Program-made: the position numbers and the translations under genes
NCBI GenBank assembly: GCA_010405405.1
Contig: MU004234.1
Location: 1,143,275-1,207,274, forward strand
Reading direction: 5' to 3'
Length of the DNA: 64,000 bases
DNA from: Microthyrium microscopicum
Taxonomy: Eukaryota
Shown: positions 1 through 25,846 of the stretch, one piece after another
Numbering within the stretch: the stretch's first letter is position 1
Layout of the letters: every line of letters begins with the position of its first letter
Notes under the pieces: model-generated
Databases searched by the model: none
Told to the model about the DNA's origin: nothing
The model's input: the letters and a program-made list of their open reading frames with translations, nothing else

Positions 1-1249
1 TACTAGTATTTATATAATATAAAATATCTATACTTATTTTATATACTATGTCTCTATTAGCTATTATACTATAATAGATAAGCCTACTAGATGGAACTAC
101 TATCTTATAGAAATATCTTTAATTATAAATAACTTTTTATTTAATTTACTATTAGTATAATTATAACGTAGAATATTTTTACTATAAAAGGATTAGATCG
201 CTTTACTAACTCCTTTTATAGATTAATTAAATAGAAATAAACTGTCTCTTCTCTCTAGCCTACTATATATTCCTTCAACTTACTATATATCTAATTTAGG
301 AATACTTTATACTCTAAAATAAGAGCTTTATTATCTAGATAATTAGTATTACTACGTTATACGTAAGAAGCTTATTATAATATTAATTTATATATTTCTA
401 TTAGCAAAATAATAAATTTATAATAGGTGCTGCCCTTAACTACTAGCTGGCTACTAGCTATATATAAGATTAACTATTAAGTTAACTATTATCTCTTATA
501 TTAATACTAACCACATTTAATTATTAGCTGGCTTATTGCTTCTTTTGGATTGCTTGCTAAATATTTCGTTAATTTCTAGAAGTTAGTAACGATTATACAA
601 AATATATATTTAGTAGTACTTCTATATAAAGTCTTTTTACTAAATATCTTATTAATGTCTTGATACTAGTAGTAATTTTATAAAATACGCTACTAGTAAT
701 ATGTTTATTAAAAGCTTAATCGTTAAATTCTTTATTAGTTACTAAATATTAGAGGTAACAACGTAAAATATAAAAGTAGTAATACCTTCTATTAGAAGCT
801 ATAGTTTATATACTATATTAACCTTTAAATATTAAGGATAATAATATAGAATCTATACTTAGTATTACTTACTATCTAGAACTATTGCTATAGAGGGTAT
901 CTTATCTAACTAATATTAGTAGTAATTGTATAGAATCTCTTTTTAAGTAATACTTCTTAGTAAAAGAGCCATATTAGTTAAAATTACTTTTAGTAATTGT
1001 TTATAATAACTAGATAGTAGAATTAAAGAGTATAATTTATAAGGCTTATTCTCTACTCTAGTTAATATATTATTTATTTTTATTAAGTTAATAATATCTC
1101 TTATAGTTTAGTAGCTATAGATTATAGAAATCTTAGCTTTCTTTAGATAAAGACATCCTATAGTATATTCTTACGTATAAACTATATATAGTCTTATTAC
1201 TATCTACTTTATATTATTATATAAGATATAGCGCTTTATTAAAGTCTAA

Positions 1250-4100
1250 AACTATATAATTATATTAGACGATAATATAGAGATTTAATATATTTAATAA
1301 TGTTATAATTATAAAGAATAATATTAGAAAAATTTAAGTTTATAAGCTAGTATTATCTTCCTTAGCTATAACTAATAAGTAAGTAAAGCCTTTAAAGTAC
1401 TACTATATAGAATCTTATTAGTTATTACCTTCTACTTATATTATCTTTAGTAACTAAACTAAAGCTAAATCTAGAGCTACTAGATATTAATAGTAGCTAG
1501 AGCTAGTAAATATTATTTAACTATAATTATATCTAATAATTATAACTATATACTTCCTTATAGGTTAAGTATAGCTAGAAGATTAGCTATATTAAAGAAA
1601 GGAGCGTAAAATATTAGTAGTAAGAGGCTAGTATTAATTATTAGAACTAATCTAGGTAGCGCGGTACTATAAACTTATTCTTCGTCTCCTAAGGCAGGTA
1701 GATAAGGAATAACGTCTTTAAAATTATAGTATACGCTATTTTATATATAGTACGTATATTAACTATTTTAATATTTAGGAAAGTTAACGTACCTTATTAT
1801 TACTAGCTAGTTAATTTAGGACTAAGAATAAGGAACTACTACTAGGTAATAGAATAAGTATTAGGTATATTTTTAATTAGCTATATAGTATTTCTTATAA
1901 CTATATAAGACTATAGCTTTAATAAAAATATTAGCAATCTTAGTATTAGACTACTAAAAGATTTAAGAAAATAAGTCTATTATTAGGTATAAGATACTAG
2001 ACTTTCTAATTATATATATACGAAATAGGTTATTACTTTCTATAAGAAAACTATTTAAATAGAGAAGAATTACTTAAAGTTACTATAAGCTTAGGTCTTA
2101 ACTAAAGGTTAGTAAAATAATTCGTAATTAAAAGAATTTATACTTACGTTTATAATCTAGACTAAGACTTAAAAGATATAATAGGTTAAAGGATAGTAGA
2201 AATTAATTTAAGTATACTAGCTATTATTTAGTCTTTAGTAAACTAACTATTTACTTAGATTTTATACTATTACCTATTACTAAGTAGAGAGTAAGCTATT
2301 ATCCTTTAATCTAAGCGTAATATAAATAGCTATTATAGTAGAGAGCTAAAAGGGTAGGCTAATCTAACTAAAAGGACGTTACGTATTAACGTTAGCTTAA
2401 TATTATATACATATAAGTATCTCTTAATGCTTTCTCTCCTAGTCTAATATAAAGATAGCATAATAGTATAATATAAGTACTATAGGAATAAAACTACGCT
2501 AATTAAAATTAGCTTTAGTCTAAGACTTAGACTATACTACGTAGGGAAAGAAGTTCTACTTATAGAACTACTAAATACTCTAAATAATAAGGGGCGCATA
2601 GAAGTAAACCTAGAAATAGAGGCTAGGTATAGTACTAATAATAGACGTAGTTTAAATTATAGGTTAGTTATTAGGGGTATAGTACTTAAAGTTGTTATTA
2701 TAGTTTAGAGTTATGTTAGAATTTAAAGGTTAAGAGGTTCTTAGTAGGTTCTATGCTATTACCTAGGTAGTATAATTAGATAATAACTATAAATTAATAA
2801 TATTAATAGCTTTTCTTCTAAAATTATAAAGACTAAAGACTAATTTATTAGGTAGTTTAGGTAGCTAAAAAAGTATAAATACGCGTAAGTATATATTTAT
2901 AGAGCTAAATAAAAGTGTAAGTTATTAGAACGTAATTATAGGATAGAACTTATAGCTTTCTTATTACTAAATTAATAGATAGCTAAAGACTAAAATAGAA
3001 TTGCTTCTCTTAGCGCAAGTAGTAGAAAGAAGCGCTAGGTAATAGTAAATTATAAAAGATAAGAGATCTTTACTTTAAAGGTTAGTAGATAAGAATTTAT
3101 ATTAATAGTACTAGGTAAATAAGGTTAGTTCTTAAATAGATATAGCATAGTAGAACTTATAGTCTTTTAATATAAGGCTAAATATAAGATATTATTATAG
3201 TATATAGTAGGTAGCATAAGTAATTAAAGTAAATAAAGATAAAGAAGTTCTTACTTTTAAAGGGAGTAAGGAACTCTAATAGAGAGTTAAAGAGTAGTAT
3301 AAAGAAGTAATAAAGGTATAGATAAGTAGAAGGGTTTTATAGATAATAACCTAATTAAATAGTTGCCTGCTTAGTAAGGAATAAGTAAGAGTAATTAACG
3401 TAGCTATAGATTATAATATAACTTAAGCTAAAGTAGTGAATAACTATATAACTATCGTTATATAACGTAATAGTCTTTACTAGTATAATATTCTAAAGAA
3501 ACTTTATAATTAATATACTATAAATAGTAATAATGTCTATAAAAATAGTTATCTTTTTGTAGTAATAGTAGTAAGTATAGGTATTAGTAATATTAAAAGA
3601 GTATATAGAAGCTAGAAACTTATAGTATTAATAGAAGAACATAGACTAGAATAGCTAAAAGTAATAATAGTTAGTAATTATAGCTAGAGCATTAATATTA
3701 GCTATTATAGCAACTAAATATATAGAAAAAGGTAAGAAAATTATAGTTCTAATAGATAGTAATCTTTATAAGAAGAAGTTGCCTTCTACTAATATAAAGT
3801 AAGGTATAGTAAGAGCAAGGGTTTTAGGGAAGATAAGATAATAAATATAAGTATCTAATATAAGTAATAACTTAATAGGTATTAAGGAACTTACTTATCT
3901 AATTTTATAATTTAATATTAATATATAGTAAGTGCGTAGAGCCTATCTAGTAGTCTCTTAGTTAATAGTAATAAGTAGCTAGTAATAAATAGACTAAATT
4001 AGTATTAAAAGTGCTATCTCTATAATAAAAAGACTTAGCTAAAGTCTAGTAAATAAGAATAGTAGTATTAGTATTATAGGGGATGTATAGTAGATATAAT
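1250..4100 (-). pseudogene. RIP-degenerate intron-rich gene relic
   Basis: Minus-strand splice signals survive: GTAAGT...TACTAAC-CTTTAG (2147-2102), GTAAGA...TTTAG (3254-3178), GTAAGTT donor at 3894, GTACGT...AATAG near 1790-1736. Product unknown; limits approximate. Confidence 0.45.
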
Positions 4101-4599
4101 AGTAGCTCTTCTAAAGCTAAACTATTAAGAGTAGGGGCTATATAATTAAAGCTAAGAATACTAGGTTAATTTTCTTAGAATATATTAAAAAATATTAATT
4201 AATAGAAAAGCGTATATTTAATTAATTAGTATTTATAGCTCCTTTTCCTAACTTTATTTTATTAAATTTATATTAACTTTATTAAATCTTTATATTAGTA
4301 CTTTAATCGTATTATATTCTTTAACTTTAAGTATATAATAACTTTCCTAACTATAATAAAGTATAGCTACTTTGCCTCTTAAATTAATTTATATATAGTA
4401 TTAAATACTAATAGTTATAGTTAAATAATTATAATAAGAACAAGAACTAAGTTTATATAATTATAATAGTTTTATTTATTATAATTATATAGGATATAGA
4501 GTTTTACGATTAGGGCCGCCCTAAAACCTATAGCTATTTAGAAGAAGCTAGACTAAGCTCATAGGGCTAGGTTAAACTTTACCTTGTAAAGATAAAGTA

Positions 4600-6000
4600 T
4601 ATTAAGACGTATCTTACGATATTAAGCTATACTAGATATCTATAGTTATTTAGTAAAGTTCTATAAACTTATAAAGCTAGATTAAACTATTAATTACAAA
4701 GAATAAAATATACTTAGGTAGTTACTATTATTATACATAAAGTATATTAAAACGTTATTCTCTACTATACTATATTTATTACTACTTAAGTTAATATACT
4801 AGCTAAACCTCTACTAATAGACAAAATTACTATAAACTCTCTATATTTCTTTAGTAATCTTTCTAACGCCCTCTTTTTCTTAGTTAGTATATTTATAAGT
4901 TTAACTATATTATAACTACTCTTTAGTAGCTCTACTATATAGCATTATGAATATTAGAACCTAGGTTTTTTAAGAATATTTCTTGCCTCTAAAATATATA
5001 CTTAGTATATATAACCTCTAAGCTAGTAATGCTTATAAGCGTTATTACTAGTAAGAGTCTTATTAGCATTTATCTCTTCTATATAACTAATATAAGTCAC
5101 CTTACGCTTTTAGTTAGGTAATATAGCCTTCTACTAGTTAATAGTTACTAACTAGAAATAATCTAGTATAAGAGAGCAACTTAAAATATTGCTACTTTTG
5201 TAAAAATACTAAAGGATTTTCTTAATTAAACTATAAGCCTTAGTAATAGCTATAGCCTTTAAGTTAAAAGATCTAACTAGGCCTAAAGAAGAGGCCTTTA
5301 TAATAGTAACTACTATATAAGCTATAAGTAAGGCTTTTGTAGCTTTAACTTCCTTATTAAAGTTTATATAGGTAGTACTATTATAAGTACTAGTAGAAGA
5401 AATTAGGATAATAGAAGATAGTAAGTTAAGAAGAGATAGTATAATAATATATATAGTAAAGAAGTTTATAGCATAAGAAAAAACTTTATTAAAATATAGT
5501 ATACTAGCTAACTAAAGAGAAGGAAAAAAGAGAGAAGGAGAGCTCTAAGGCGTCTTAATAGAAGAGGTAGTAGAGCTTTCTTAAGAGTAGAGAAAAGAAG
5601 GAGACTAAGAAAGTATAAATAAATTACGATTATTATTATTATTATAATTATTATTATAGACTAGCGTATTATTTTTATTCCTATTCTATATATATAAATT
5701 CTTCTTTTCTATAGTAGGAGGAGCCTTTTTAAAGGTAAGTAAATTCTTCTCTTATAAAGTAGGTAAATTGCTATTAAAATTAGTAGGCAACGCTAAGGAC
5801 TCTTACCTAGAAGAACGTAAGAAAGTAAGTAAAGTAAGGTATTTACGCTTATTTAAAAGCTTAGGCTTAGACGATAATAGTTATTAAATTACGCCTAAAG
5901 GTATAACTACGTAAGAAGACTACTATAGTAATAGTAGTAGTAGTAGAGGAGAGGAGAGAGGAGTAGGTAGATTTAAGAGTAGTAAGCCTTAGACTATTAC
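4600..6000 (-). pseudogene. RIP-degenerate ORF relic with Pro/Ser-rich and acidic N-terminus
   Basis: Minus frame reads LNLPTPLSSPLLLLLL**SS (de-RIP ...SSPPPPPSPQQSS) and NNNYNNNNNR (DDDHDDDDDR, ~5630-5660). It continues ~450 codons with only RIP-type stops. Confidence 0.45.
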
Positions 6001-6589
6001 TTATTCTTCTTAATTATTATTACTATAATATTATTAATATTATTATTTACGATTTAATAGTAAAGGAATATACTTATTAGCGTTAAAAAAAGCGCTTAGG
6101 AAGTCTACGCGCTTATTATAATATAAACGTATTTCTTATTAACGGATCGTTCTAAATTTTATAATAATCGCTACGTAGGCCTTTAAGCTATATATCTTTT
6201 TTTTATCTTTAAAATTATGTTTAAATAAGTTAGTATAAATATATAGTACATTATAGCGTACTAAATATACTAAAGGCTAGTAATATTAAGGTATCTTTAA
6301 AAGTCTAATAGAAAGCTAATATTTATAAAAGGTATATAAAGCTAATATATATATTATTAAAGAGCTTTAAAATATAGAGCAAGGAGAGGTTTTATTATAG
6401 TAATACTCCTATTTAACCTATACTCTTATAGAAATAAAGCCTAGTTAGTTTAGGCTATTATTCCCTATTAAAGCTATCCTTAAGGATAATATCTTATTAT
6501 TCTTTCCTAAAGTATAAAGTTTTAGTAAATTGTATAAAGTTTTATAAAGATATTAGCTAATTATATGCTAGAATATCTTTATAGAAGCC

Positions 6590-8250
6590 TATTTACTATA
6601 GGAGCGTTAATAATATAAGATAGTAGATATTATAAGGTAGCCTAATTATAATAGCTTTATAATAAGATAGATCTCTTAAAGATATAGAAGGTCTATAGGT
6701 TTATTTTATAAGTACTAGAAGCGTTATAAAAATCTAGAGTACTTATTATTAATCTTAGAATTAAATATTATAGAATAAGATTAACTTACTAAAAGCTATA
6801 ATAATACTACTATTATAAGGCGTAGGATAAATAGCTACTATATAGTTTACTTCTAGGTCTTAGAATAGAAGAAGTTTAACTTAGTCTAATGGTACGTAAT
6901 ATAAATTTTAGAAGATAGTCTTTACTATATAAACTAAAGTTATTTAGATTTAGTAACTAAAATCTTACACTATAAGACTAGGATTAAATTTATAAGATTA
7001 GTAACTATATTGTTGCTTATTTATAAGTAAGTTAGTAGGATTTATATAGTGTTATCTATTAAATATTAACTACTTATTAGCTACTTATAAGCCTATGAAG
7101 ATAAGCTATAATAGGCTTAGAATAAGTAGTATTTAAGATAATAGTCTACTTAGGGTTCGTTAGGCAAATATAGATTAACCTAAGGAACTCTCTTAGTATA
7201 AGGCTTAATAAATAAGTAAAAAATATTAGACTAAATACGTATAAATAAGGACTTAATTTCTTAAGCTACTAAGCTACTAAGAAGTAGTAAATATAATTTT
7301 AAATCTAGCGCTATAAACTTAGAAGTAGTAACTAGAGATTTAATATTAGTACTATAAAGATAATAATTAGGCCTAGAGAAGTATAAGAATTAGTCTAAGA
7401 GTTAAACTTAGAAATAGACTTAAATAGCCTTATATATGTACTAACTAAAGGTTACTAAGTAAGTAAAGTAACTTAAAACTATATATAGAAAGGCATATAA
7501 GCAATATAGCATATAATATTAATATTAATATTAAACTTACTAAATATCTCTATAAGGTAAAGCTTTGTAAAGCTTAGATATAGAGTAAAGGTATAAAGAA
7601 GAGATATAAAGAATCTAGAGTAGTAGATATAGTTAAATACCTATTAAGCTTTAGTCTTAACTAGTTTAAGTAGACACTATAGTAGGCTATATTTACTTCT
7701 TATCTTTTAGCTTACTAACTCTCTTTCTATAAGTACTAATATTAACAATATTACTATATAGTAGTTAGTTCCTCCTACGTACTATAAGAATTAAGTTAAG
7801 TAAGTAGTAACTACGCTTAGCCTACTATCTTAAGCTATTACCTTATATAAAAATCTAATCTTTACTTAGACGTAGTAAGATATAATACTAAGAGTAATAT
7901 ACTATAATAAATAGGAGGCTACTAATATTATAGTAAGACCTTTAAAGAGAGAAGTAAATATATCTTCTTATGTGTTTTAAATACTATAGGGTAATGGCGT
8001 TATACTAAGGGATAGCTATACTAGTAGATAGTATATTAACTAAAAGCTTTAATAAGAGAAGTATATAATAACTTATTCTATAATTATACTTTTGCTAAAA
8101 ATATAGCAAGGGTTATTAATATATATAGCTTCTATTAATAGCATAATAATAAAATATAGTCTTGTTATTAGTAAGCCTATAGCTATATACTACTCTATCT
8201 AACTCTACTAGAAATAATATACCTAGATAGTAAAAGTTTAGTATTATTAT
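6590..8250 (+). pseudogene. RIP-degenerate ORF relic of unknown function, convergent with the helicase
   Basis: One + frame is interrupted almost only by TAA/TAG for ~550 codons and de-RIPs to protein-like text. No family recognised; limits approximate. Confidence 0.35.
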
Positions 8251-8419
8251 AATATATTTAAATTTATAAGATAATCTAATTTAATCTTAGAAGATCTTAA
8301 TTAATATTAACTAATTAGAGGGTAGCATTTTACTAATATTAGATATAGAGTAGGTAGCTTACTAAGAGCATAGAACTCTACGTACTAGTATTAAAAGATA
8401 TATTAAGCTAAAGTAATAA

Positions 8420-11400
8420 TTAGTTAGGAAAGGTAGTATTATGCTTCCCCTTTTTTGTAAGAATTAATAAACGCCTAATACGTATTTTCTAAATATAGCT
8501 TAACCTAATAATTCTTTATTAAGCTCTCTTTTCTACTTATTTAATACTAGCAATACTTAGTAACTAGGTAGCTTTTTTATAACTAGGTAGTATACTTAAA
8601 GTATCTTTTACTTACTTACTAGCTTTAGCCTAGGTTAAGCTAATAGGTAACTCTATAAGAGTACTATAATATATAGTTCTACTAGTAAATAGAAATATAG
8701 AACTACTTAGCTTAGAATCCTTAAGAATTATAGTATTAACTATAGCTTATAACGTATAGTAATAAGAAGGCTTAGGAGCTAGAGAAGAGGCTAATAGTCT
8801 TAGAGCTAAACTAGATATTAATACAGTACTAGATATGCTTATTACCTAAGATAGTAAGCCGCTTTAACAATGCTATTTTTTGTCTTATTTACACGCTATA
8901 GCTTTAAAACAAGCCTTAATGTTAGTATAGTTAGCTTCTTACTACTATCTAATAGTCTTATTAGTGTCCTTAGCTAAGTTAATCTTAATTACTTATTAAT
9001 TAGTAGATTAAGATACGCTCTAGCCTCTTATTACCTCTTTTTATTTCTTACGTTCCTACCTCTATTACTTAAGTTTAGTAAACTTTATAGGTACTAGAAT
9101 AGCTAACGCCTTAAGCTTTTTAAGTAGGTCTATACTATAATTATTATATTTATTCTAATTATAAAGAAGAGTTGCTTAACCCTTTAACTAATCTTATTCT
9201 ATTAGGGATAGTAGGTTACTAAGCTTAGTAGTACTAGAGAAAATATAAGCTAACTACTATTAAGTATAATAGCTTAGTACTATAAAAAATAATATACTAT
9301 ACTTAAATATAGTAGAGAGTAGATATAATCTCTATGCTTAGTCTTATACCTAAGCTATAATCTCTTTTAAAGTAAACTAGCTATAACTATTAAGAGCTAG
9401 AGGTTTTAGTTTAGCTAATTTGTCTTTATAAAGAGCAATCTTTAGAAGTAATAGGGCTAGGTTATATCTATTATAGTAAAGTAGTAGATCCTAAGTTAAT
9501 AAAGATAGTATTTAATCTTTACTAAGAAACTTCTAGATTATAATGCGAATATAATTAGCGTTTACTAAATTATAGAACTCTTAGGGTATTTTTACTTATT
9601 ACTTAGTCTTAGGTTTAGAAAAGAACTCTATCTTCTTTAACTTCTTTTACTTTCCTATTATATTCTAGGTTAAAGGTCTAGCCTAAGACGAACTAGCTAT
9701 AGAAGATTCTAGTTTAGTAGATTCTTATTCTATATTAGTAAGGCTATTTTTGCTAATATCTAATATATTGCCTAGTATCTATACTTATAATAGAGAATGC
9801 AATAAAGCTTGCTAGGAAAAAGCCTACTAAGACTAATGTTATTATTATATAGCGTAATGTAATAAAAGTATATAACGCGTAGTAGTCTTCTACTAGCGCG
9901 TTATAGCTATACTAGGCTTAGGTATATTTTAAATAGGTCGTTCTTTTATATATTTATTATATAAGTAATATAGGAGCTAAATTTTAATTATACTATAGTT
10001 ACTTTTACTTTGCGCACTATAACTAGCACGCTACTAGAGATTTAGTATATTATAACTAATTAGTATTTTCTAAATAATAATAAGTATAATACTAGGAATA
10101 TAGTAGCTAAGCCTAAGATAAGTTATTACTACTATAATTTAAATCTTAGAGTTAGGTTTATAGAAAGTAGTATAGTAGTAATTTTAATTATACTTAGATA
10201 ATTAAGACGTATACTTCTTAATAATTTTATTAACGTAAAATATTTTAGCCTTTAGATTATATAAGTACTTCTTAGAGTAACTATTAGGAAGATAAGAAGT
10301 AAGTATAATTAGTAAATAATAAAGGTATATAAGCGTAGTTTAGATACTAAAGATACTATTAATAAAGATAATTATCTTTAGTATCTTAGATAGACTACTA
10401 ACTTTAATCTTATAGTTAGAGTATTTATATATATGCTTATGCTTAAGTTTAGAATATTAGCTAGAACTATTAATATTAATATCTTCTTTGCCTAAATGTT
10501 TGCTATTAGTATTATTCTTATCCTCTATAGAATAAAGATTAGATTTAGGACTTGCTATATCTATACTAGTACTATACCTATTATTAGACTATACGTCTTA
10601 GCGTTAAACTTCTTATTAGCTAGTAGTTACTTTATAGTAATTCTTATTTACTAAGGTAGTAGTTTTATATACTTATTAAAATATATACTATAGAATATTA
10701 TAAAGATTATTAAAAGAAGTAAGCTTACCTTTCTTAATAAAGTGTATAATAATAGAAAGATCTAGATGATTTATACTTATTCTTAATAGAGTAGTTTACC
10801 GCTAATATTAACTTAACTATTAAAAGCTACTAAGCTAAAAAACTATTTCTTGCGTTAGTTAACTTAATATACTAGTATATCTAAACTAGATAACATCCTA
10901 TAGTAATATTGCTCTAAGCTTGCTAATTATAGTAAACTTTATTTAAAAGTTATGCTACTAATAGATAAGGTAATACTTATTAATAGTAATATATCTAATT
11001 CTTTACTAAAACTCTACGTCCTTTAAAAGTTTCTAGAAGTCTAGGAATAACACTAGCTCTAGTAATAAGAGAATATAACTAAAGTCTCTTCTTCTTATCT
11101 TACGAGTAAGATATTAAATCTTCTCTTTAGAATCTTTTATTAATAGATAAAGAGTATATTCTTCTACGTTCTTAATACTATTATACTAGTCTTTCTTAAG
11201 TCTATTAAGAAGAATAATTTAGAGTATAATCTTACTAGTTAGAGCACTATAGGTGTATAGGATTAGGCTTTTGCTAAACCTAGTTTTAGCTATTAAAAGT
11301 ATATTCCTACTACTATAGATTAATATATAAAGGGCTTAAATCTAGGCTTCTTTTAGCTTAATATTTAGATAGAATTATTTTAAAGCACTTCTTAATACGC

Positions 11401-11671
11401 TAGGCTATTTCTCTAAATAACTTTCACTCTAAGTTAAAATATTAATTATCTTATAGATAGTTTCTAGTTTTATCCTAAGTATTCTCCTAGTACGTTTATT
11501 AAGTTCTTCTAGCTCTATCTCATCTAGGTCGTATAGTAATAAAGGGTACTATATCTCTTAGCTTTTATAATAATTAGGAAAATATTCTCTATTATTAGTT
11601 TACCTATTTATAAGCTTTCTTTTAAAGCCTAGAGGCGCTTTTAGTATTCTTTTTATCTTTATAGATAGCAT
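8420..11671 (-). pseudogene. RIP-inactivated RecQ-family (SF2 DExH) helicase
   Basis: One frame from ATG 11671 reads ILLIAKTRFSKSLIL (de-RIP AKTGFGKS, Walker A, ~11267-11290); YITINKYYLIY**HNF (IAIDECHLIHQW-HDF, DECH 10970-10981); FRYTSIL (FGCTGTL); IIVVITYLRLS (IMVATTCLGLG); **RASYSAQ (WQRAGRGAR, ~10010-10036); then a C-x-R...CCDRC-like Zn motif. The 3' end is approximate. Confidence 0.88.
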
Positions 11672-11762
11672 TACTAACTTAGTTAAAAAAGTTTTAACCT
11701 AGAATATATAATAAGTATAATAGATTAGTAGTAAGGTATAGATAGAATAATTAAATATTACT

Positions 11763-11820
11763 ATAGATCTTCTAATATCTTAATAGATCTTCTAACATCT
11801 TAATAGATCTTCTAATATTA
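11763..11820. repeat. 20-bp tandem repeat, ~3 copies (ATAGATCTTCTAAYATCTTA)
   Basis: Units at 11763, 11783 and 11803, about 90 bp upstream of the helicase relic ATG. Confidence 0.9.
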
Positions 11821-12830
11821 TCTAGATCTTATAAGAAGTAGCAACTTTATTAGGCTTATTAAAGATTTTACTAACGTCTTATAGACCTTAATTAATATAT
11901 AGTACTAGAAGACTCTTAATATCTATTAAGTACTACTCTTTAATAGTTTATATATATATCCTATAATAAGGAAATAATTAACTAGGTAGGTAATAATATA
12001 GTAATTAGTAGAATAAAAATGGAGTATATACTACTACTAATAATAATAACCTAAAAATAACGTACTAGATTAAAATAGATAATAGTTTTAAGTATATTTA
12101 TATATATAAAATTATATATATTGTAGTAGTTATTTAGTAGTTAATAGTTAAAGGTGCGCTTACTAAAATATAAATACGTTAGACGTTTTTAGGTATATTA
12201 AGAGGAATAGTTAAATATTATAGTTTCGTATTAATCCTAAATAAAAATAGATTTATTAGAAAGCTAATTTCTAACTATAGGAATTAAATAGTACTGAATT
12301 TAAGCTATAGGGCTATAATTATGATAGTGTTAAGTTATTTATAAAAATAGTAAAATTGTAAAGTGAGTTGCTATAAAATTTTCCAAGTTGTCCTTAGACG
12401 CGACTATGTCGTAGCTAGCGGAGACTTGGCGCGATCTGATTGGCTGAGATAAGCAACTTCAGCAAGAGCGACCGGGGCGAACATTCTGGCCAATATCATG
12501 TCGGTCTAAACGGCAAGAGCTACCTAGGTAAGGATAGCAGGCACGATATTGAACAAAGGAAGCTACGACCGAGCCTCGAAGAAGGTGCGACCCACGACCC
12601 AACTATTGACCAAGTGACCTCTACCCGGTACTATAACAGTTCGTCTACCCAGCTTTTTTGCATTCCTCCACCTCGAGTTTCCTAGCAACAACTACTTTTC
12701 ACATATTTGCCTCTGTTGTTTAGCTATCGTCGTTTCATCGGCACTGAAATAGCTGGCTTCCCCCTCTTCTGTCAACACTTCCCTCCTCATCACCTTTGTG
12801 CTCTGGTTCCCTCATCCGCTTTAATTCACC

Positions 12831-14722
12831 ATGGCTACAAATCTCGATGAGAAGCCGTCGGAATACCCGATCACCGACCCACATGCAAACGGCGGTCATC
12901 TCGCTACAACATCTAATGTCGAAAACATCGAGGCTCCCGTTACCTGGAAGGCCTACCTGATGTGCGCCTTTGCATCCTTCGGTGGTATCTTCTTTGGATA
13001 CGACTCTGGATACATCAACGGTGTCAATGCCTCTGCAGTCTTCATCAACTTGGTTGAGGGTCCTAATGCGTCAGCCTTGACCTCACCCCATCAATCGCTC
13101 ATTGTTTCCATTCTCTCAGCTGGTACATTCTTCGGTGCAATTGCCGCCGGCGACATTTCTGACCGCATTGGCCGAAAATGGACCGTCATTCTGGGTTGCG
13201 CTATCTACTGCTTTGGTGTTGTCATTCAAATGATCACTGGACCTGAAGTAAATGCTCTAGCTTGCATCGTTGCTGGTCGTATTATCGCTGGTATTGGTGT
13301 TGGTTTTGAGTCTGCCATTGTCATTTTGTACATGTAAGCTGCGCCTTGATTCTTCTACAATAACACAGTTACTGACTTGAGCCGCAGGTCTGAAATCTGC
13401 CCTCGCAAAGTTCGTGGAGCTCTGGTCGCAGGTTATCAATTCTGTATCACCATCGGAATTTTGCTCGCATCAGGAGTCGTCTACCGCACCGAAACGCGTA
13501 CTGATACTGGCTCTTATCGCATTCCTATCGGCATCCAATTTGCTTGGGCCATTATCTTAGCCGGAGGATTGATGACATTGCCAGATTCCCCTCGTTATTT
13601 CGTCAAAAGAGGTCGTGTTGCCGACGCTACGCGCGCACTCTCCAGACTTCGTGGCCAGCCATCTGACTCTCAGTACATTCAAGTCGAACTCGCCGAAATT
13701 ATTGCCAACGAAGAGTACGAGCGCAAGATCATCCCTGATACTGGTTTCTTTGGCAGCTGGATGAATTGCTTCACTGGTTCTCTCTGGGATGGCAAATCAA
13801 ATCTTCGCCGAACAATTCTAGGAACATCCCTCCAAATGATGCAGCAATGGTGAGTACAACTATCTTCCGGAAACAACTCCGTAGTACAATCATATTAACA
13901 TATCTCTAGGACTGGTGTGAACTTCATCTTCTACTACTCTACGCCATTCCTACAGTCTACTGGTGCAATTGCCAACCCCTTCCTGATCTCTCTGATCTTC
14001 AATTTGGTCAACGTCTGCTCTACTCCAATCTCCTTCTACACCGTAGAGAAGCTTGGTCGTCGCGCATTGCTTGTTTGGGGTGCCCTTGGCATGCTTATCT
14101 GCCAGTTTCTCGTCGCCATCATTGGTGTAACCGTCGGGTTCAACCATACCCACCCCGGTCCCACAGCTGCTGATGGTACCGCTACCACCCGCGCTGACAA
14201 CGTTTCCGCTGTCAACGCGCAAATCGCATTCATTGCCATTTTCATCTTCTTCTTCGCTTCAACCTGGGGTCCAGGAGCCTGGATCGTCATTGGCGAGATC
14301 TTCCCTCTCCCAATCCGTTCCCGTGGTGTTGGTCTCTCGACCGCTTCCAACTGGCTTTGGAACACTGTAAGTTACCTCAACTGTTCATTTTCGGAATCAA
14401 TAACTAATTTCATTGCGCTCAGATCATTGCCGTCATCACTCCTTACATGGTTGGTACCACCGAAGGAAACCTTCGATCCAGCGTCTTTTTCGTCTGGGGT
14501 GGTCTCTGCACCGCCGCTTTTGTCTATGCCTACTTCCTCATCCCGGAGACCAAGGGGCTCTCTCTCGAGCAGGTTGACCGCATGATGGAAGAGTCGACTC
14601 CACGTACTTCTGCCAAGTGGCGGCCATCGGAGACATTTGCTACAGTCATGGGTACCACATCTGCCGGAAAGCTTGATCCTAAGCTCGTCCAGGATGTCGA
14701 GCGACGAGGTTCGGCTACCTAA
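12831..14722 (+). CDS. MFS sugar porter (high-affinity glucose/monosaccharide transporter, RCO-3/MstA-like)
   Basis: FGGIFFGYDSG, DRIGRK, SEICP..RG, PDSPR, QQWTGVNF, PETKGLSLE motifs. Introns 13334-13387, 13850-13909 and 14367-14422 restore the frame. Confidence 0.95.
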
Positions 14723-15101
14723 AAGGTTTTGCCTGCAATACTTGATTCAGGCAAACTCCGACCGAGAAACTTGTTGACATGCATTCGTTTTTGCAATTAC
14801 ACACTGCGTATTGTACATCTGCATAAAGTCTGCATGTTTCTATTAGGAAATAATAATAACTAATTCTTATTCACTCAATATTCTTTCACTAATGTATAAA
14901 GTCATGAATGTCAATGCTCATATAGCCTCGTTAATGCTAATGGTATGTACTATGTACATTAGACAGTAGGAAAATGCTACACAAATGTGAAAGAATCCAA
15001 ACAAATGCGCTCGCTCAGCCTCGCTAAGGCTCAAAATAACAGTCTAGTTCATCCAATCATGTGCAACAATTCTGCTCAATAACAAATGAAAATATGTCCT
15101 C

Positions 15102-18100
15102 TCAGAAGCCGTAACTAGCCACTCTCTTACGCTCCCCATCCCACGTCTTCCCCATATGCATCATCTTATACAAATGCGGATGTTTCTCTCTCCACCTCAA
15201 TCTACGCTTGCGCTCTTCCATCCTCTCATTCTCTTCAGGACGTTCCTCTCGCGTCTTCTCTTCTCCTTTAAGTGGTCCAGATTTCCGATGATTCAGTAAA
15301 CCTGCACTAGTCCCAGGACGCGGCAATTCTGGCCGCGCATCCTGCTCTGCGTCTCCGCGTTTCGGGTGGTGCAAGCTGGAATGGCGAAAGGAGGAGAATT
15401 TGATTGGCGTTTTCGGGCGTGCGGCGTGTAGGAATGCTTTCATGCTGTGGCTTGTGCCGACACGGGTTTGGGCTGCGGACATGACGCTGTCGTGGCCGTG
15501 GGAGTGGCGTGACGAGGGGCTGTTGTCAAAGTGGTCGCGCTCTTCGAGATCGATGGAGTTGTCGCTGTTGTGTGTATGTTCGGTGGAGTGAGCATGCTCG
15601 TCAAGTTGTGGTGTTTGCGAGCTGGTGGGCAGGTCTGGTGAGGATAGGAGAGTAGGCGAGGAGTGGAAGGTTGCTGATGAAATGTCCCGCGTATGATTAT
15701 GGCTGCGCGTTCTGCGTTGAATAGGGGATGCTGGAGAGTCGAGTGGAGAACCAGGTGGACTGGGAGCCAGGAATAAGCGGGAGGCTGTTGGAAGTGGTGT
15801 TGTTGGGGGACTATCAATGGTGCTGAACGCGTGTGGTGTGGTGGGCCGGGCAGTATATGTACTGCCACTAAGGAAGCGACGTGGACGGCGGGCTAGCTGT
15901 TCGGACTGTTCTGCTAGCTGGCTTTCCAGAGCGCGGATCGACGAAATGTGTTCTTCCGAATGCTGCTTGAGATTTTGGATTTGGTCGTTCTTCTCCTTCA
16001 GACGTTGCTCAAGAGATGAGATCTTCTTTTCCGCGTCGTTGGAACGCTTCTGGAGCGTTCGGAAATGCTGGTGGAATTGGGCATTCGCAGCGTCACGATC
16101 GCGTATCCTTGTTTCCAGAATAACATTGCTTTTGATGAGCGAAGCATTCTTGCCTTCCAACTCGTTAATTTTGGACTCCAGGCCGTTGGTATTTTGCTCC
16201 AATTGTGCAACATTACATTCAAGCTCAGAGATACGAGACACTTGAAGACTACCCTGCCGCCGCAGAGTGTGAAGTTCCCCATTAAGTTTGCTGATCTGAA
16301 TAGTCTCCTCAGTGAGTTGCATTCGAAGATCTCTCGACTCAGAGTGCGAGTCCGTCAAAGCATTTGACAGACGCTTGTAGTGATTTTGATGTTGATCAGC
16401 AGCATCCTTGAGAGTAGCAATCTCCCTCGAGTTGCTAGCATGTGCCTTTTCTAAGTTTGCTAGCTCGTTGACCTTTTCAGATACTGTTTGCTCCAGGTCT
16501 GTCACTTGCTGCGATTTATTCTCAACCATTTGTGCTTTGGCGGCATGCTCCTTTTTCCAACTATCGACAATGTCATTCAGCTCCGCAATTTCAGCTTCAT
16601 GCTTGCTTTGAGCGTGCTCGAGAGATTGATCCTTCTCCTGAATGATAGCAACTTTGTGTTCATGCTCCGATTTCCAGTGAGTTACTTCCATCTTCAAATC
16701 TCGTTGACAGCTTTCATGTTGCTCGCGAAGCTCAGATAGCTGCATTTCTCGAGACTGTAGTAGATCTGCAGTGGCCTCGAGTTTTTGCTTCCATTCCTTG
16801 ACCTTCGTATCCAGTTCCTGGCGCCACTTGGAGGACTCAGTATTGAAACGATGTTCGCTGTCCGCTCGGTGCGACTTGAGCCCATCAAGATCCTTCTCTT
16901 TGATTTGAAGCAAGTCGCTCGTGGCCCGATGTTTCCCCTTCCATTCCTTCACCTGGCCATCCAGCTCTCGTTCTCGGGTTTCATGCTCGGCTCTCAGCTG
17001 ATGGATTTCCTGATCCTTAGCATGGATTAAATCATCGCCGTTCCGGTGCTTGCCTGACAGCTCTTCGACTTGCTTCTCAAGGTCTTGCACTCTCGAGTCG
17101 TAATCCAAGGTCAGCTTCCGTATAGTTGCAGTCTTTTCTGAGACAATGTCGTCATATTTCGAGCAGCGGTCTTTTAGCGTGTCTATGCGTACTGCCATAG
17201 CATCTTTTGCGTCTGTAATTTGTGCATATGTCTGCCTGAGTTCTCCCATCTGCTCTTCCAGCCGCCGCTGCTGCTTTTGGCTCATTCGATGCTGCTCAGA
17301 AGCTTCCCGTCGCGAAATTTTCAAAGATTCGTACTTCGCACGAGTACTTTGCAGCGCAAGCTCGGAGTTCTGTTTCAGCGATTCTTTCCTGCCCAGTTCT
17401 CTCTTGGTCTCCGACAACTGTTGCTGAATCCAAGTCTTGTCGTGAGCTAATTGTCCCAGCTCTTTAGTCATGAGCTGTATCTTGTCCGTAAGTTCCGCTT
17501 GCTCATGAGTTAGATGGTTCATTTGAGTAGTGCGCTCCTCAAGAAGTTGATGTTGCTTTTCAGCATTGGCGTGATGGGAAGAAAGTTTACTTTCGTACTC
17601 AGTCTGCTTCTCGACAGCCTGCTGTTGGTAACTATCAAAGCTGGATTGCAAGGCATGCTTTTCTGTCATAAGCTTCGACGCTTGCTCTTCGGCAAGTTGG
17701 CGAGACTTTGTCAAAGCTGCAATCTGTTCGCGGGCATCCTTGAGGGACGCCTCAACTGTTTGGTTCGAGCTGACCATTTCGGCAATATGCTGCTCATGCG
17801 CACTTGTAGCTTGTGCAAGAATCGATTTGGTGTCTTCGAGTTTTGCGGCGAGGGTAGCCTTTTCTTCCATGCTGCTAGATATCTCTGCGTTTGACGACGA
17901 TATTTTGTTATCCAATTTCTGAATCCGTTCCTCAAGTTTTGATACAACGTCTTCATAATCAGCAATCTGCGAGTTCAATCGTGTTTTACTGTCGAGCAAT
18001 GTTCTCGTCTCGGCCTTTTGACCTTCAAGCTCCGTGCTGAGTTTGCCAGTAGACTCCACGAATGCAGCATGCATCGCCTGAATATCTGCCAGGTCTGATA

Positions 18101-19631
18101 AAGCTTTAGCTTTTGTCTTCTCAAGATCGTTGCTCGCTTCAATATGGCTATCCAGGTTCTGTTGCAGAAGTTCTTGTGAGGTTTTCAGGTCGGCGTGGGC
18201 TTCTCGTTCCAGTTGCAAACTACGCTCCGCTTCCTCAAGGGCTTCGGATGTTTTCAGTCGATCTGTATGTAGTTCTTCAACGCGAGCAAGGTGTGATTTG
18301 TCTTTGACGTCAGCTTCCTGCACAGCATCCCGCAGTTTCGTTTCCGAGAGTGCTAGCTTCTCTTCGAGCTGAGCTAGAGTGTATTTTTGGCTTGAAATCT
18401 CACTCTCCAGCTTTTCTGACTGCTCTTTAGCTGCGGCGAGTTCAGACTGGGTTTGCCTAAAGGACGAGCTGGCTTCTCGTTCTTTCGATTGGTGTGCAGC
18501 AACCACCTCGTCCATGGCGACCTTGGATTTATATAGAAGATCATGTTTCGTTTTCGCATCTTGAAGACCCTGATGCGATTGCTTGACTTCGACTTCAAAT
18601 GCTTCAATCTTTGATCTAAGCTCTTCTTGCTCAGACGTCATACGCGTTTTCTCGGATTCTTGTCGTATGATGTTGTCTTGAAGTAAGTTCCGTTCGGCTT
18701 GCATCTCCGCTATCCGATCTTGACTAGTCTGAAAGTCCACTGCTGCTTTTGAAAGCTGCTCGGTTAAATTCTTTAGCTCATCGTCTGAAGTGATCTTGTC
18801 TTTTTGCAGATCTTCAATCTCAGACTGCTTGTCAGCCACTTCTTTCTGTAATGATTTCTCCGTCTCCCGAAGCAACACCAGCGTATCGCGAGACAGCCTA
18901 CATTCCCGAAGCAATGCCTCCACACGGTAGTGACATATCTCCAAGATCTCCGAGGGCATGAATTGCAAATCGCCGGCATCCGAATTCGGAGAGTGCGTCC
19001 GCGGTGTAAATGGCGGTGAAGATATGGACGACGGATCTGTTCAGAGTACTGCTGTTAGCTATCAGTTGCTTATCAGTATGTCAGATCATAACGAACCATC
19101 TGATGTGTTCAACGCAATGCCATTCAACATTTTCAACAACCCACTGCCCTGTTTTTCATAGGTCCGTAGTGTATTTTTCAGCCGCTCTATCATGTCCTGA
19201 CTCTGTCTTCCCGAAAGATAGTCCGCCAACAACGTCTGGGCAAACATCTGCTCCTTCTTGCCTAATTGTGCGTCTCTAGAAGCCACTCGTGCAGCCAAAC
19301 GGAAGGAAAGTGCGCGATATTTTGAAGACGTAGATTTCTCTGCTGTTAAGTCGCGTTTCAGTGATTCGCGTTGGTGTCTGATGAACCCAGTATGACCGAG
19401 AGCAGTGAAATGGGTCTCCAGATCTTGTGGAAGATCTGGATTGTTCATTGAGGAAGTGTCTGGCTCGTCTTTCTTGTGATCTGGCCGACGCGTTGGTAGG
19501 CCATGTATAGATGAGGAGGCCTGATCGATATGGATAGCTCGCGTGCGGGCGGGCAATTGGAGGGATTGCGAGAGAGGGTGCGCGTGGTGGAGGTCATCTA
19601 AATCCATGGCGGTGTAGGGTTTCCCAAGCAT
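15102..19631 (-). CDS. Large coiled-coil protein (~1,490 aa) with disordered Ser/Pro/His-rich tail
   Basis: ORFs 19086-19664 and 15102-18968 join in frame through intron 19096-19037 (GTTCGT...GCTAAC...AACAG). Heptad-rich E/K/Q/L composition. Start codon uncertain. Confidence 0.8.
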
Positions 19632-21053
19632 GTACAGCTCAGTTGAAGGATTTTGTGCGGGCAATTGATACGGGCCAGTTCAATTGTATTCGTAACAGTT
19701 GATATAAAAAGAGTTATGCTAGAAGATTGTGGGTACAAAATAGCAGGGCCGTGACGAGAGATCGTTATGATGGCTATTCATCGTGAGTGAATAAGTGGGG
19801 TGAGACCTGGGCGGAAGGCAGTGAAAGATCACCAGAGAAGCCACCTGGGCATTAGATTTGACTGCAGTAGAGGGCCAGACATGAGCTGCAGTATGGTAAG
19901 TATCGAGTGAAATAGGTATTCTGGGAGACTTGGAGGTGGTGAGGTTGGAAGAGAAGGAGTTATGGTGTAAGTTTCAGATGGTGGACAGAAGAAGGCAGTC
20001 GGCAATTTCAGGTTTAAAGTGGAGGATTTAATGCACGCCAGAGTCGACCATCAGATCACTAATAACCGATTGCCTAACATCTCACAAGGACAGGACAGAG
20101 CCAATCCTTAATAAGAAGTGGAAGAAATATAAGAAACCAAAACAAACATGGCCAATTGATGGGCAGGACGTGTTCAAATACAGCCTATAGCAGAAACGGA
20201 GAATGACATAGCCAGCGACCCACGATCACCTACTTGTTGGCGCTGTCCTGTCCGAGCGGCACAACTCAATTCCTCTTCTACTTATTTTTATACCCACTAA
20301 CTATCAAAGCATTATATATAGAAAATGTCTGTAGATTCAATCTCGCAGATTATGGAAACATTCGATACTTTCATGCACCGCTTCACGGCAAGGCAGAACA
20401 GTATTGCCCATATTCAAGGTTTATGATCTTATTTTGACTTTTGGTGCCTCCAAGAGTCCAAAGGCCCAACAGAGTCAGGTACAAAGGTTGGAAGTGGATA
20501 CAAAACATTGGAAACATGCCAGAACAGCGTGATTGAAATCTTAAGCCATCGCGCGTGTTTGTGGGGTTCCTTTATGGTATCAACCGATATAATCGTGTAA
20601 TTGGACCACTCGTGGCGCCCTCGGATTCGCTCATACATACTCTAGCCAATTACTAAATGACGACACTTCCAATTACCAAGTTTGATGTTTGTTTTGCTGG
20701 CGGTTAACAACAAAGATCATGCTGGGAGAACATGACCTTTGTACTCCTTCTTGACGTGATGATTGTTTGTGTTAGCCTCGGAAGTCGGATACATCTTTGA
20801 GCAAACGAGAACTATGTAGTTTTGGACCCATCTACCTGATCTCCCCGATTATTCCCTTGGTGTAACGGGTTCTCTTGGGGCGGGCCGAAGCGATGTGGCG
20901 CAGTAGATATAGGACGTGGAGGTGGCGCAGGCTTTTTAGACTGGCACCACAGGCAAGTTTCCAAGATTGTTAACTGCATGTTTAAAGTAATCTTGTTCAT
21001 CGATTGAAAGGTCTGTGGAACTCAAATTGGTCGTTTCCTTGGCTTTAAAATGT

Positions 21054-25386: not shown

Positions 25387-25846
25387 GTTGAGTATGATCT
25401 TTCGAGAGCTTTGAGGATGGAAATAACGAGGAGGCTGGAAAGAGTAACCTAAGTAAATGCTGGGACTATGTGTGTCAATATAGCGAAAATGATATGATTT
25501 GTTGTTGAGATAAGTTGAATTGTTGTGAGCTGATAGAGAATGGAAGTAGATTCAACTCCATCCTCTCAGGTTACCTATATACTAAAATACATTGCTACGA
25601 TCGACACAATGGTCGGTCCATGATATGGCCGGTCTTAGCGAAATCACGACCGACGGAGAGACTTTCCCAGATGAGTACTTGTCTTGTTAAGGTTGGAGGA
25701 GAGAAGGAGAGTTGAAGAAGAGATGGGAAAGCGCGTCGGAGAAGAGTCACCCCGACGTTCGGTCCATTTTCGCGCGCTATGAACATTCAATAAGCCGTGC
25801 ACGCGGGCACTTATTCTCCCGCAATTAATCTAACCACTAACAGCTA

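What the first reader, a model, noticed from the sequence alone, without database searches (positions are those of the whole stretch)
8420..12350. Hidden RecQ helicase leads inward from the edge of a large RIP-erased multigene element
Seen: the ORF-free AT block hides a collinear set of RecQ motifs (Walker A, DECH, motif III, V, VI, Zn module) in one frame. It starts ~700 bp from the block edge and points inward, where Starships carry their tyrosine recombinase. Known: RIP needs duplicated DNA; RecQ helicases occur in AcademH transposons and as telomere-linked helicases (TLH). Inference: this is one end of a >12-kb multicopy helicase-bearing element. The QRAGRGAR motif VI and lack of telomeric repeats fit AcademH better than TLH.
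Basis: partly seen in the sequence, partly recalled or inferred. Interest (0 to 1): 0.8.

Follow-up and report, generated by a model that had tools for sequence, protein, structure and literature searches.

The report
RIP-killed RecQ-like helicase in repeat
An AT-rich, gene-free stretch of this fungal genome hides a mutated, dead copy of a 1,083-residue RecQ-type DNA helicase gene that belongs to a large repeated DNA unit, of which an undamaged copy still exists in the same organism.

Summary
On the minus strand, 11671..8423 (stop 8422-8420), lies an intronless helicase ORF destroyed by repeat-induced point mutation (RIP). Codon by codon and without gaps, 1074 of 1083 codons derive by C>T/G>A changes alone from one annotated protein, P0123 (Microthyrium microscopicum, DEAD+Helicase_C); shifted controls give 16-20%. 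Its sequence, profile and predicted fold match only RecQ-family helicases.

Contigs from sequencing runs of the probable source sample show many diverged copies of the whole 12.4-kb block, with about 95% of differences being transitions. They also show an un-mutated copy and a shared right boundary at 12452 followed by unrelated flanks.

The class of the element is unresolved. TLH-specific N-terminal C2H2 motifs are absent, and the KolobokH gene order does not fit. The defining AcademH features (transposase, TIRs, TSD) could not be tested, and the left 8.4 kb stays unidentified. RIP-affected multicopy RecQ genes are already described in other Dothideomycetes. I read this as a new member of a known kind, of moderate interest.

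The parts
1..12452 (.). RIP-mutated copy of a multicopy repeat unit. Its left end lies beyond the window; its right end is at about 12452.
   Evidence: RIP indices. In runs X1 and X2, 1344 and 1522 contigs laid at 80-99% likeness, with 95.9% and 95.3% of listed differences being transitions. GC-rich contig continuations at 1430, 2415, 3919 and 9500 are the un-mutated form of the window (119 of 120 positions). At 12452, 4 contigs (X1) and 5 contigs (X2) run on into unlike sequence.
8420..11671 (-). RIP-inactivated, intronless ORF of a 1,083-residue RecQ-like SF2 helicase (11671..8423) plus its stop codon (8422-8420). It holds 100 RIP-made stops and has 25.3% GC.
   Evidence: RIP-aware profile; P0123 hit; 1074 of 1083 codons RIP-compatible, gap-free, same stop position
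11267..11290 (-). Walker A / motif I. The window reads AKTRFSKS; the intact copy reads AKTGFGKS.
10943..10987 (-). Motif II DECH and the RecQ aromatic-rich loop. The window reads TINKYYLIY**HNF*; the intact copy reads AIDECHLVHQWRNFR.
10010..10036 (-). Motif VI. The window reads **RASYSAQ; the intact copy reads WQRAGRGAR.
10106..10135 (-). Motif V. The window reads IVVITYLRLS; the intact copy reads MVATTCLGLG.
9464..9553 (-). Four-cysteine (C-x24-CC-x2-C) zinc-module region. All four Cys codons now read Tyr.
   Evidence: C707, C732 and C733 invariant, C736 in at least 90%, of 25 family members
11672..12452 (-). 781-bp terminal region upstream of the ORF. It holds a 20-nt tandem repeat (2.8 copies) at 11763-11818. 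The last ~100 bp (12350-12452) are not AT-rich.
   Evidence: A diverged paralogous contig is collinear from 10862 to 12432 (record 11).
1..8419 (.). Remainder of the RIP-mutated repeat. Its coding content is not identified.
   Evidence: nothing found. One search shows that Pfam is blind to RIP-mutated translations.

Best explanation
The AT-rich block is one copy of a discrete, multicopy DNA unit longer than 12.4 kb, in a Dothideomycete genome (probably Microthyrium microscopicum or a close relative).

The unit's first gene from its right end is an intronless gene for a 1,083-residue RecQ-like helicase. It starts 781 bp inside the end and reads inward.

This copy was duplicated DNA and was therefore hit by repeat-induced point mutation. 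C>T and G>A changes turned 100 Gln, Arg or Trp codons (one of them a Glu codon) into stops and lowered GC to about 24%, so the gene here is dead.

At least one un-mutated copy, encoding P0123, persists in the same organism.

Shown:
- the gene, its RecQ-family nature and its inactivation by RIP
- multiple diverged copies
- an intact copy that covers at least 1430..11671
- a shared right boundary at 12452

Inferred:
- The unit is mobile, most likely a large helicase-bearing DNA transposon or a comparable selfish repeat.
- Repeated rounds of copying, RIP in sexual cycles and segregation left dead relics, while an intact master copy survived.

The class of the element is not settled.
For: - RIP indices.
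- RIP-aware RecQ profile: 54.6 bits against a shuffle maximum of 24.0.
- P0123 hit.
- 1074 of 1083 codons RIP-compatible, against 16-20% for shifted alignments, with no gaps and the same stop position.
- PDB sequence search: 35 of 35 hits are RecQ-family helicases, best WRN at 7.9e-14.
- Profile-profile match to canonical RecQ: probability 99.9%, E 3.7e-34, 337 columns.
- Predicted fold: every listed Foldseek hit is a RecQ-family helicase (BLM, RecQ, WRN, RECQL5, RECQ1).
- Multicopy: 1344 and 1522 contigs laid on 1..20000 in X1 and X2, about 95-96% of listed differences are transitions, and summed depth over the block is about 3-8 times that of the flank in X2. The tool warns that depth is not a copy number.
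- Intact copy: four GC-rich loose ends are the exact pre-RIP form of the window.
- Boundary: 4 and 5 contigs leave the window sequence at 12452. Agreement among them is 0.52-0.53, about what unrelated flanks give. The consensus flank matches the window in 13 of 30 purine/pyrimidine positions, which is chance level.
- The family: 133 representative clusters at E<=1e-30. Many members are fragments or sit on short contigs.
Against: - No transposase, TIR or TSD was found, and the left end of the unit is outside the window.
- The left 8.4 kb gave no recognisable gene.
- Runs X1-X4 come from one sample that may be the source of the window. They show copies within that genome but are not independent support.
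- The boundary evidence comes from short-read contigs, not from aligned full copies.
- Depth figures are not copy numbers.
- P0123's cluster has one member on one contig, so only one intact gene model is on record.
- A sharp boundary could also arise in a subtelomeric block.
Confidence: 0.8

Rival explanations
1. It is specifically an AcademH DNA transposon: an Academ-type DDE transposase plus a helicase, with TIRs and 9-10-bp target-site duplications. The transposase gene would lie further left.
For: - A stand-alone DEAD+Helicase_C helicase, which is the pair of domains attributed to AcademH in PMC10799480 (passages).
- A large, low-copy unit with a sharp end.
- Language-model look-alike clusters include Basidiomycota and Cnidaria (a lead only). 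This recalls the 'animals and fungi' of the AcademH paper's title.
Against: - None of the defining features could be examined.
- No coding signal resembling a large ORF was recovered in 1..8419. The best candidate frame gave no homologue.
- The AcademH paper is not held and no Academ sequence was available for a tree.
Confidence: 0.2
2. It belongs to the telomere-associated (subtelomeric) RecQ helicase repeats known in Dothideomycetes and other fungi. These are spread among chromosome ends by recombination rather than by transposition.
For: - Published precedents match closely in size and state. S. nodorum sub-telomeric repeat X26 contains a RecQ helicase, is strongly RIP-affected, and the genome has 26 RecQ gene models (PMC3017866 passages).
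- The Z. tritici subtelomeric RecQ gene is 3,480 bp, 34.7% GC, with 13 copies (PMC4522978 passages).
- L. maculans repeats include a 'RecQ telomere-linked helicase' (PMC3105345 table note).
- The AT block runs off the left edge of the window, so a chromosome end further left is not excluded.
Against: - No telomere-type arrays in 12.4 kb, even in the RIP-invariant purine/pyrimidine alphabet (longest run 2 units).
- P0123 and 25 relatives (0 of 26) have neither of the two TLH-type C2H2 patterns, and P0123 has only about 100 residues before the helicase core (patterns from bioRxiv 10.1101/2024.02.27.582403).
- Of the 20 relatives whose clusters carry a source name (10 of the 30 clusters looked up), none is called telomere-associated.
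- Other copies leave the shared sequence at one point into unrelated, GC-normal flanks.
Confidence: 0.3
3. It is an ordinary host gene region that was segmentally duplicated a few times and then RIP-mutated. No mobility is involved.
For: P0123 is annotated as a normal gene on a 2.5-Mb contig, and its cluster has a single member.
Against: - Many diverged copies.
- A common boundary with several unrelated flanks.
- A family rich in fragments and short-contig copies in many samples.
Confidence: 0.08
4. The motif series is a chance pattern in AT-rich DNA.
For: AT-rich codons allow many 'possible ancestors', and naive Pfam scans find nothing.
Against: and above all 28 (99.2% of codons against 16-20% in controls).
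Confidence: 0

Closest known systems
Sub-telomeric repeat X26 / RecQ gene family of Stagonospora (Parastagonospora) nodorum (PMC3017866, passages read)
   Same: A Dothideomycete with a multicopy RecQ-type helicase. Some copies are heavily RIP-mutated while other gene models stay intact. The helicase was recognised only after RIP was allowed for.
   Different: X26 is described as sub-telomeric. Here no telomere repeat is seen within 12.4 kb and the flank is an ordinary sugar-transporter gene. Sequence relatedness to X26 could not be tested.
Subtelomeric RecQ genes of Zymoseptoria tritici (PMC4522978, passages read)
   Same: An ORF of about 3.2-3.5 kb, very low GC and about a dozen full or truncated copies.
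   Different: Those ORFs are still open at 34.7% GC. This copy has 100 stops at 25% GC. Location relative to telomeres is unknown here.
Telomere-linked helicases (TLH) of Magnaporthe, Fusarium, S. pombe and Ustilago (bioRxiv 10.1101/2024.02.27.582403, passages read)
   Same: RecQ motifs in a multicopy family.
   Different: The TLH domain and the two N-terminal C2H2 motifs are absent (0 of 26). The helicase core starts at about residue 100. No telomere repeats are adjacent in the window.
AcademH DNA transposons (Kojima 2020; paper not held, known here only through citing papers)
   Same: A large, low-copy fungal element with a DEAD/Helicase_C helicase gene.
   Different: Transposase, TIRs and the 9-10-bp TSD were not observed or not observable.
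KolobokH (PMC9587614, passage read)
   Same: A fungal transposon lineage that carries a RecQ helicase.
   Different: There the helicase lies downstream of the transposase domain. Here only 781 bp and about 100 residues precede the helicase core, and 30 of 30 relatives scanned have no further domain.
Canonical RecQ, BLM/Sgs1 and WRN helicases
   Same: All helicase motifs, motif 0, the aromatic-rich loop, a four-Cys module and the fold.
   Different: About 21% identity in the core. No Pfam RQC or HRDC hit, and RecQ_Zn_bind below threshold. Large disordered inserts at 358-420 and 586-677. A separate clade in a quick tree.

Membership tests
RecQ-family SF2 helicases | Helicase motifs I, Ia, II (DExH), III, V and VI in order | tested here: met
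   P0123 and the window codons; Pfam DEAD 1.9e-12 and Helicase_C 1.3e-07
RecQ-family SF2 helicases | RecQ-specific motif 0 and the aromatic-rich loop after motif II (recalled as defining) | tested here: met
   hhalign of family A1 against canonical RecQ A2: probability 99.9%, E 3.7e-34. 'PRxEQ' aligns to 'FRPNQ' and 'DECHLVxQW..FR' aligns to 'DEAHCVSQWGHDFR'.
RecQ-family SF2 helicases | Zinc-binding four-Cys module after the helicase core | tested here: inconclusive
   C707, C732 and C733 are invariant and C736 is in at least 90% of 25 members. The spacing resembles RecQ. Pfam RecQ_Zn_bind is not found in P0123 and is only weak (below cut-off) in 1 of 30 relatives.
RecQ-family SF2 helicases | Closest solved structures and sequences are RecQ helicases | tested here: met
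   35 of 35 PDB sequence hits. All listed Foldseek hits are RecQ family, with target TM-scores of 0.42-0.74. The model has mean pLDDT 68.9.
Sgs1/BLM orthologue | Groups with eukaryotic BLM/Sgs1-type RecQ in a tree | tested here: not met
   Quick ML tree of 49 rows that I chose (28 family, 9 bacterial, 12 eukaryotic). The family is split from all canonical RecQ with SH-aLRT 100.
Telomere-linked helicase (TLH) | N-terminal TLH domain with two C2H2 motifs | tested here: not met
   Neither pattern from the Fusarium TLH preprint occurs in P0123 or 25 relatives (0 of 26). The first Cys of P0123 is residue 163.
Telomere-linked helicase (TLH) | Lies next to terminal telomere repeats | tested here: inconclusive
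   No arrays in 1..12460, also none in the purine/pyrimidine alphabet. The block runs off the window's left edge.
AcademH | Academ-type DDE transposase in the same element | not testable with these tools
   Pfam has no model for it (PMC5751038 passage). Pfam cannot read RIP-mutated frames in any case. No Academ sequence could be fetched.
AcademH | Terminal inverted repeats and a 9-10-bp TSD | not testable with these tools
   Only the right end (12452) is in the window. The TSD length comes from a PMC10045372 passage.
KolobokH | RecQ helicase downstream of the Kolobok transposase domain | tested here: not met
   781 bp lie between the ORF start and the unit's end, and about 100 residues precede the helicase core. 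30 of 30 relatives have only DEAD and Helicase_C above Pfam's cut-offs, with ResIII in 6.
Starship | DUF3435 tyrosine-recombinase 'captain' as the first gene at the end | tested here: not met
   At the end that is visible, the first gene is the helicase. The other end is unseen.
RIP-mutated repeat | High TpA/ApT, low (CpA+TpG)/(ApC+GpT), differences from the intact copy that are C>T/G>A only, and duplicated DNA | tested here: met

The most novel reading that the evidence does not exclude
The block is the end of a so far unclassified large (>12 kb) mobile element of Dothideomycetes. Its terminal gene is a RecQ-like helicase of a distinct clade that is neither TLH nor Sgs1/BLM. One master copy is still intact, and possibly active, in a RIP-competent genome. 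The 'telomere-associated RecQ' repeats reported in related fungi would then be the same kind of element, misread as subtelomeric host genes.
Probability: 0.2. Interest if true: 0.6.

Novelty: new member of a known kind. Interest (0 to 1): 0.4.

Why it matters
- Method: a gene that ordinary searches cannot see (0 Pfam hits) can be recovered exactly from RIP-saturated DNA. This needs RIP to be modelled, or a read-through translation to be searched against proteins of the same species.
- Biology: one genome holds both RIP-destroyed relics and an intact copy of a multicopy RecQ-like helicase unit. How some copies of such families stay functional under RIP was stated as an open question for S. nodorum (PMC3017866). 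This locus, with a defined boundary next to a sugar-transporter gene, is a concrete case for studying it.
- Classification: it also bears on whether fungal 'telomere-associated RecQ' repeats are host genes or mobile elements.

It does not reveal a new kind of system.

Tried and rejected
- Pfam on six read-through frames of 1..12600 gave 0 families at E<=1. Pfam on the known helicase ORF in three pieces gave no DEAD or Helicase_C hit, only chance hits at E 0.12-5. Pfam silence on the left 8.4 kb therefore says nothing.
- No whole genome is held for this window.
- A purine/pyrimidine self-comparison of 1..12400 (exact 28-mers) found no LTR or TIR pair inside the block. The repeat finder found only short chance families there.
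- Frame finding in 1..8419: stop density and a purine/pyrimidine hexamer model trained on the window's intact ORFs were too weak even on the known ORF. A codon model trained on the RIP-mutated helicase picked the true frame in 13 of 16 cross-validation windows. It gave only a faint signal for one minus-strand frame at about 4650-5850.
- Searching that frame (5898..3901, residues 1-440, candidate lengths 366-1166) found nothing.
- RIP-aware alignment of all 128 ORFs of 100 aa or more from 13 related metagenome loci against the six frames of the block (768 comparisons) matched only the helicase region and its antisense mirror, apart from scattered matches of the low-complexity ORFs of L013 (at most 46 bits), which I took as chance.
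- Neighbours of helicase fragments in loci L004 and L008 (DUF6589, Tc1-type DDE_3/HTH, amino-acid permease) have no counterpart in the block.
- The second AT block (25.8-28.7 kb) is unrelated to the first.
- Joints that would skip the helicase (8202>11916 and 5942>12028) rest on 21-26 letters on one side and were not used.
- Runs X5 and X6 (organism B, shares 0.13 and 0.06) hold short exact pieces of the flanking genes and some diverged pieces of the block at low depth. I drew no conclusion from them.
- Earlier-findings look-ups returned nothing.
- The AcademH paper PMC7165386 is not held. PMC9970103 only cites it.
- Names of 30 relatives' clusters gave no element class.
Full report
**What is there**

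The first 12.35 kb of the window are 23.7% GC. TpA/ApT is 1.74 and (CpA+TpG)/(ApC+GpT) is 0.14, while the rest of the window has 47-48% GC and indices of 0.64-0.66 and 1.32-1.34. This is the signature of repeat-induced point mutation (RIP).

No ORF of 80 aa or more exists in the block. A Pfam scan of all six frames, with stops read through, finds nothing at E<=1.

RIP only makes C>T and G>A changes. I therefore wrote a scoring scheme in which every T may have been C and every A may have been G, with higher odds in TpA. Each codon then gives a probability distribution over ancestral residues, which is scored against a profile.

The profile was built from E. coli RecQ, fetched from the K-12 record, and 120 longer homologues.

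- One minus-strand frame scored 54.6 bits at 11320..10901. The match covers Walker A, motif Ia, and DExH with the following W..HDFR loop.
- The other five frames scored 14.6-19.4 bits.
- Sixty dinucleotide-preserving shuffles gave a best-of-six-frames mean of 18.6, sd 1.7, max 24.0.
- The reversed profile gave 14.3-17.2 bits.
- A second match in the same frame (10279..9887, 17.7 bits) carries motifs V and VI.

**The decisive result**

The read-through translation of 11698..8420 found exactly one protein among 7,999 scored candidates: P0123. It has 1,083 aa and is named by its source 'P-loop containing nucleoside triphosphate hydrolase protein [Microthyrium microscopicum]'. Identity is 58% and coverage 99%. 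Pfam finds DEAD and Helicase_C in it.

Laid codon by codon on 11671..8423 without a single gap:

- 573 residues are identical.
- 1074 of 1083 codons can be derived from a codon of the P0123 residue by C>T/G>A alone.
- Alignments shifted by 1 to 100 residues reach only 16-20%.
- The start codon ATG is kept, and the stop follows the last residue at 8422-8420.
- The 100 in-frame stops (52 TAA, 48 TAG) lie at Q (56), R (28), W (15) and E (1) of P0123.

The window therefore holds a RIP-destroyed, intronless copy of the gene for P0123 or a near-identical protein. The organism is probably that species or a close relative (inference).

A Cys-rich-looking stretch near the 3' end of the window ORF is an artefact, because there Arg codons became Cys codons.

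**What the protein is**

- A PDB sequence search gives 35 hits, all RecQ-family helicases: WRN 7.9e-14, then RECQ5, RecQ, RECQ1 and BLM.
- A 25-member alignment of P0123 and its relatives (A1) matches an alignment of 16 canonical RecQ proteins (A2) with probability 99.9% and E 3.7e-34 over 337 columns at 21% identity. The match includes motif 0 and the aromatic-rich loop.
- C707, C732 and C733 are invariant, and C736 is present in at least 90% of the family.
- An AlphaFold2 model (mean pLDDT 68.9) is confident in 50-340, 420-580 and 680-890, and disordered in 1-46, 358-420, 586-677 and 937-1069. Its listed Foldseek matches are all to RecQ-family structures.
- Pfam does not find RecQ_Zn_bind, RQC or HRDC in P0123.
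- An exhaustive search of 1.84 billion representatives finds 133 clusters at E<=1e-30. The best 150 are 176-1152 aa long.
- Thirty of 30 full-length relatives scanned show only DEAD and Helicase_C above Pfam's cut-offs, with ResIII above its cut-off in 6. Sub-threshold ResIII, Cas3-like_C_2 and, in one relative, RecQ_Zn_bind hits also appear. There is no fused transposase.
- Named relatives come from Verruconis gallopava (on a 3.7-kb contig) and Histoplasma capsulatum. Most others are unnamed and sit on short metagenome contigs.
- In a quick ML tree of 49 rows that I selected, the family is separated from bacterial RecQ and from eukaryotic BLM/Sgs1-type proteins (SH-aLRT 100). It is therefore not an Sgs1 orthologue.

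**Is the block repeated, and where does it end?**

Six public runs hold parts of 9001..16000. Four come from one sample of 'organism A', which may be the window's own source. I laid contigs of X1 and X2 (organism A) and X5 and X6 (organism B) on 1..20000 at 80% likeness or more.

- In X1 and X2, 1344 and 1522 contigs were laid, spread over all likeness classes.
- Transitions make up 2134 of 2226 listed differences in X1 and 2054 of 2155 in X2.
- Summed depth over the block is about 300-880 in X2 against 110 for the unique flank. The tool warns that this is not a copy number.
- One 4,120-nt contig is a diverged copy, collinear with 10862..12432.

Four contigs run from the block into GC-rich sequence at 1430, 2415, 3919 and 9500. 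Compared with the window, these 30-letter continuations match in 120 of 120 purine/pyrimidine positions. The window is derivable from them by C>T/G>A at 119 of 120 positions. They are the un-mutated form of the same DNA. The sample therefore also holds an intact copy of the unit from at least 1430 to 9500, and through P0123 to 11671.

At 12452, 4 contigs (X1) and 5 contigs (X2) leave the window sequence. Agreement among their continuations is 0.52-0.53, about what unrelated sequences give. Their consensus is unrelated to the window (13 of 30 purine/pyrimidine matches).

The copies thus share a right boundary at about 12452, which is 781 bp upstream of the helicase start and about 100 bp beyond the AT-rich edge. 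The last 100 bp are not AT-rich. The same holds for the termini of the unrelated TIR element at 25.8-28.7 kb.

Inside the block there is no GC-normal island that would mark junctions of nested elements. To the right follows a three-exon sugar-transporter gene at 12831-14585.

**What kind of unit is it?**

I could not identify anything in 1..8419. Pfam is blind to RIP-mutated frames, as shown on the helicase itself. Frame-finding gave only one faint candidate, and its search found nothing. ORFs flanking relatives in metagenome contigs have no counterpart in the block. The class is therefore open.

- **TLH.** By the passages of the Fusarium TLH preprint, TLH proteins have an N-terminal TLH domain with two C2H2 motifs and lie next to telomere repeats. 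Neither C2H2 pattern occurs in P0123 or in 25 relatives (0 of 26), and P0123's first Cys is residue 163. No telomere-type arrays occur in the block, even in the RIP-invariant alphabet. The block does run off the window's left edge.
[quoted passage not shown] That does not fit a helicase that is the first gene from the end.
- **AcademH.** It makes 9-10-bp TSDs (PMC10045372) and carries a DEAD/Helicase_C helicase (PMC10799480). Its transposase has no Pfam model (PMC5751038), its paper is not held, and the left end is unseen, so nothing decisive could be tested.
RIP-affected multicopy RecQ genes are already described in Dothideomycetes. S. nodorum has the sub-telomeric repeat X26 and 26 RecQ gene models, and the authors ask how some copies stay functional (PMC3017866). 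Z. tritici has a subtelomeric RecQ gene of 3,480 bp, 34.7% GC and 13 copies (PMC4522978). L. maculans has one as well (PMC3105345). Their size and state resemble this case closely. Whether they are the same family could not be tested.

**Most likely mechanism**

Shown: a duplicated unit carrying a RecQ-like helicase was mutated by RIP until the gene here was dead. Other copies were mutated independently. One intact copy remains.

Inferred: the unit multiplies as a discrete piece of DNA, because of the common end with unrelated, GC-normal flanks. I take it to be a large helicase-bearing mobile element. Each new copy makes the DNA a RIP target in the next sexual cycle. Segregation can then reunite a dead relic with an intact master copy from the other parent. 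Once relics have diverged far enough, they no longer expose the master copy to RIP.

A subtelomeric recombination-spread block is the main rival (0.3). AcademH specifically gets 0.2.

**Verdict**

It is a new member of a known kind and of moderate interest.

Noticed in passing
window 25842-28693: A second, separate RIP-mutated block (18.7% GC, TpA/ApT 1.55) is bounded by 114-nt inverted repeats, 87% complementary, whose outer parts are GC-rich. It looks like a ~2.85-kb TIR DNA transposon relic and is unrelated to the helicase block.
   Followed up: partly
window 12831-14585 (+) and 15102-18968 (-): A three-exon MFS sugar-transporter gene (Pfam Sugar_tr, three pieces) starts 380 bp beyond the repeat's end. 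Next to it is a 1,288-aa ORF with a weak ATG16-like coiled-coil match.
   Followed up: partly
window 12350-12452 and 25842-25955 / 28580-28693: In both RIP-mutated elements the outermost ~100 bp keep normal GC content while the interior is saturated with RIP changes. RIP seems to taper off before the end of the repeated unit.
   Followed up: no
window 8202/11916 and 5942/12028 (joints): Contigs in X1 and X2 appear to join these points, which would give copies lacking the helicase gene. Only 21-26 letters lie on one side of each joint, so this is unreliable.
   Followed up: no
window 11763-11818: A 20-nt tandem repeat (2.8 copies, 94% matches) lies about 100 bp upstream of the helicase start codon, inside the terminal region of the unit.
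   Followed up: no
locus L004 10702-11958 (-): In a metagenome contig, a fragment of a related helicase (residues 23-278) abuts a DUF6589 (PF20231) gene on the other strand. No counterpart was found in the window.
   Followed up: partly
window 5629-5657 and 5995-6047: Trinucleotide microsatellites, (ATT)n and (TAT)n, lie inside the RIP-mutated block.
   Followed up: no
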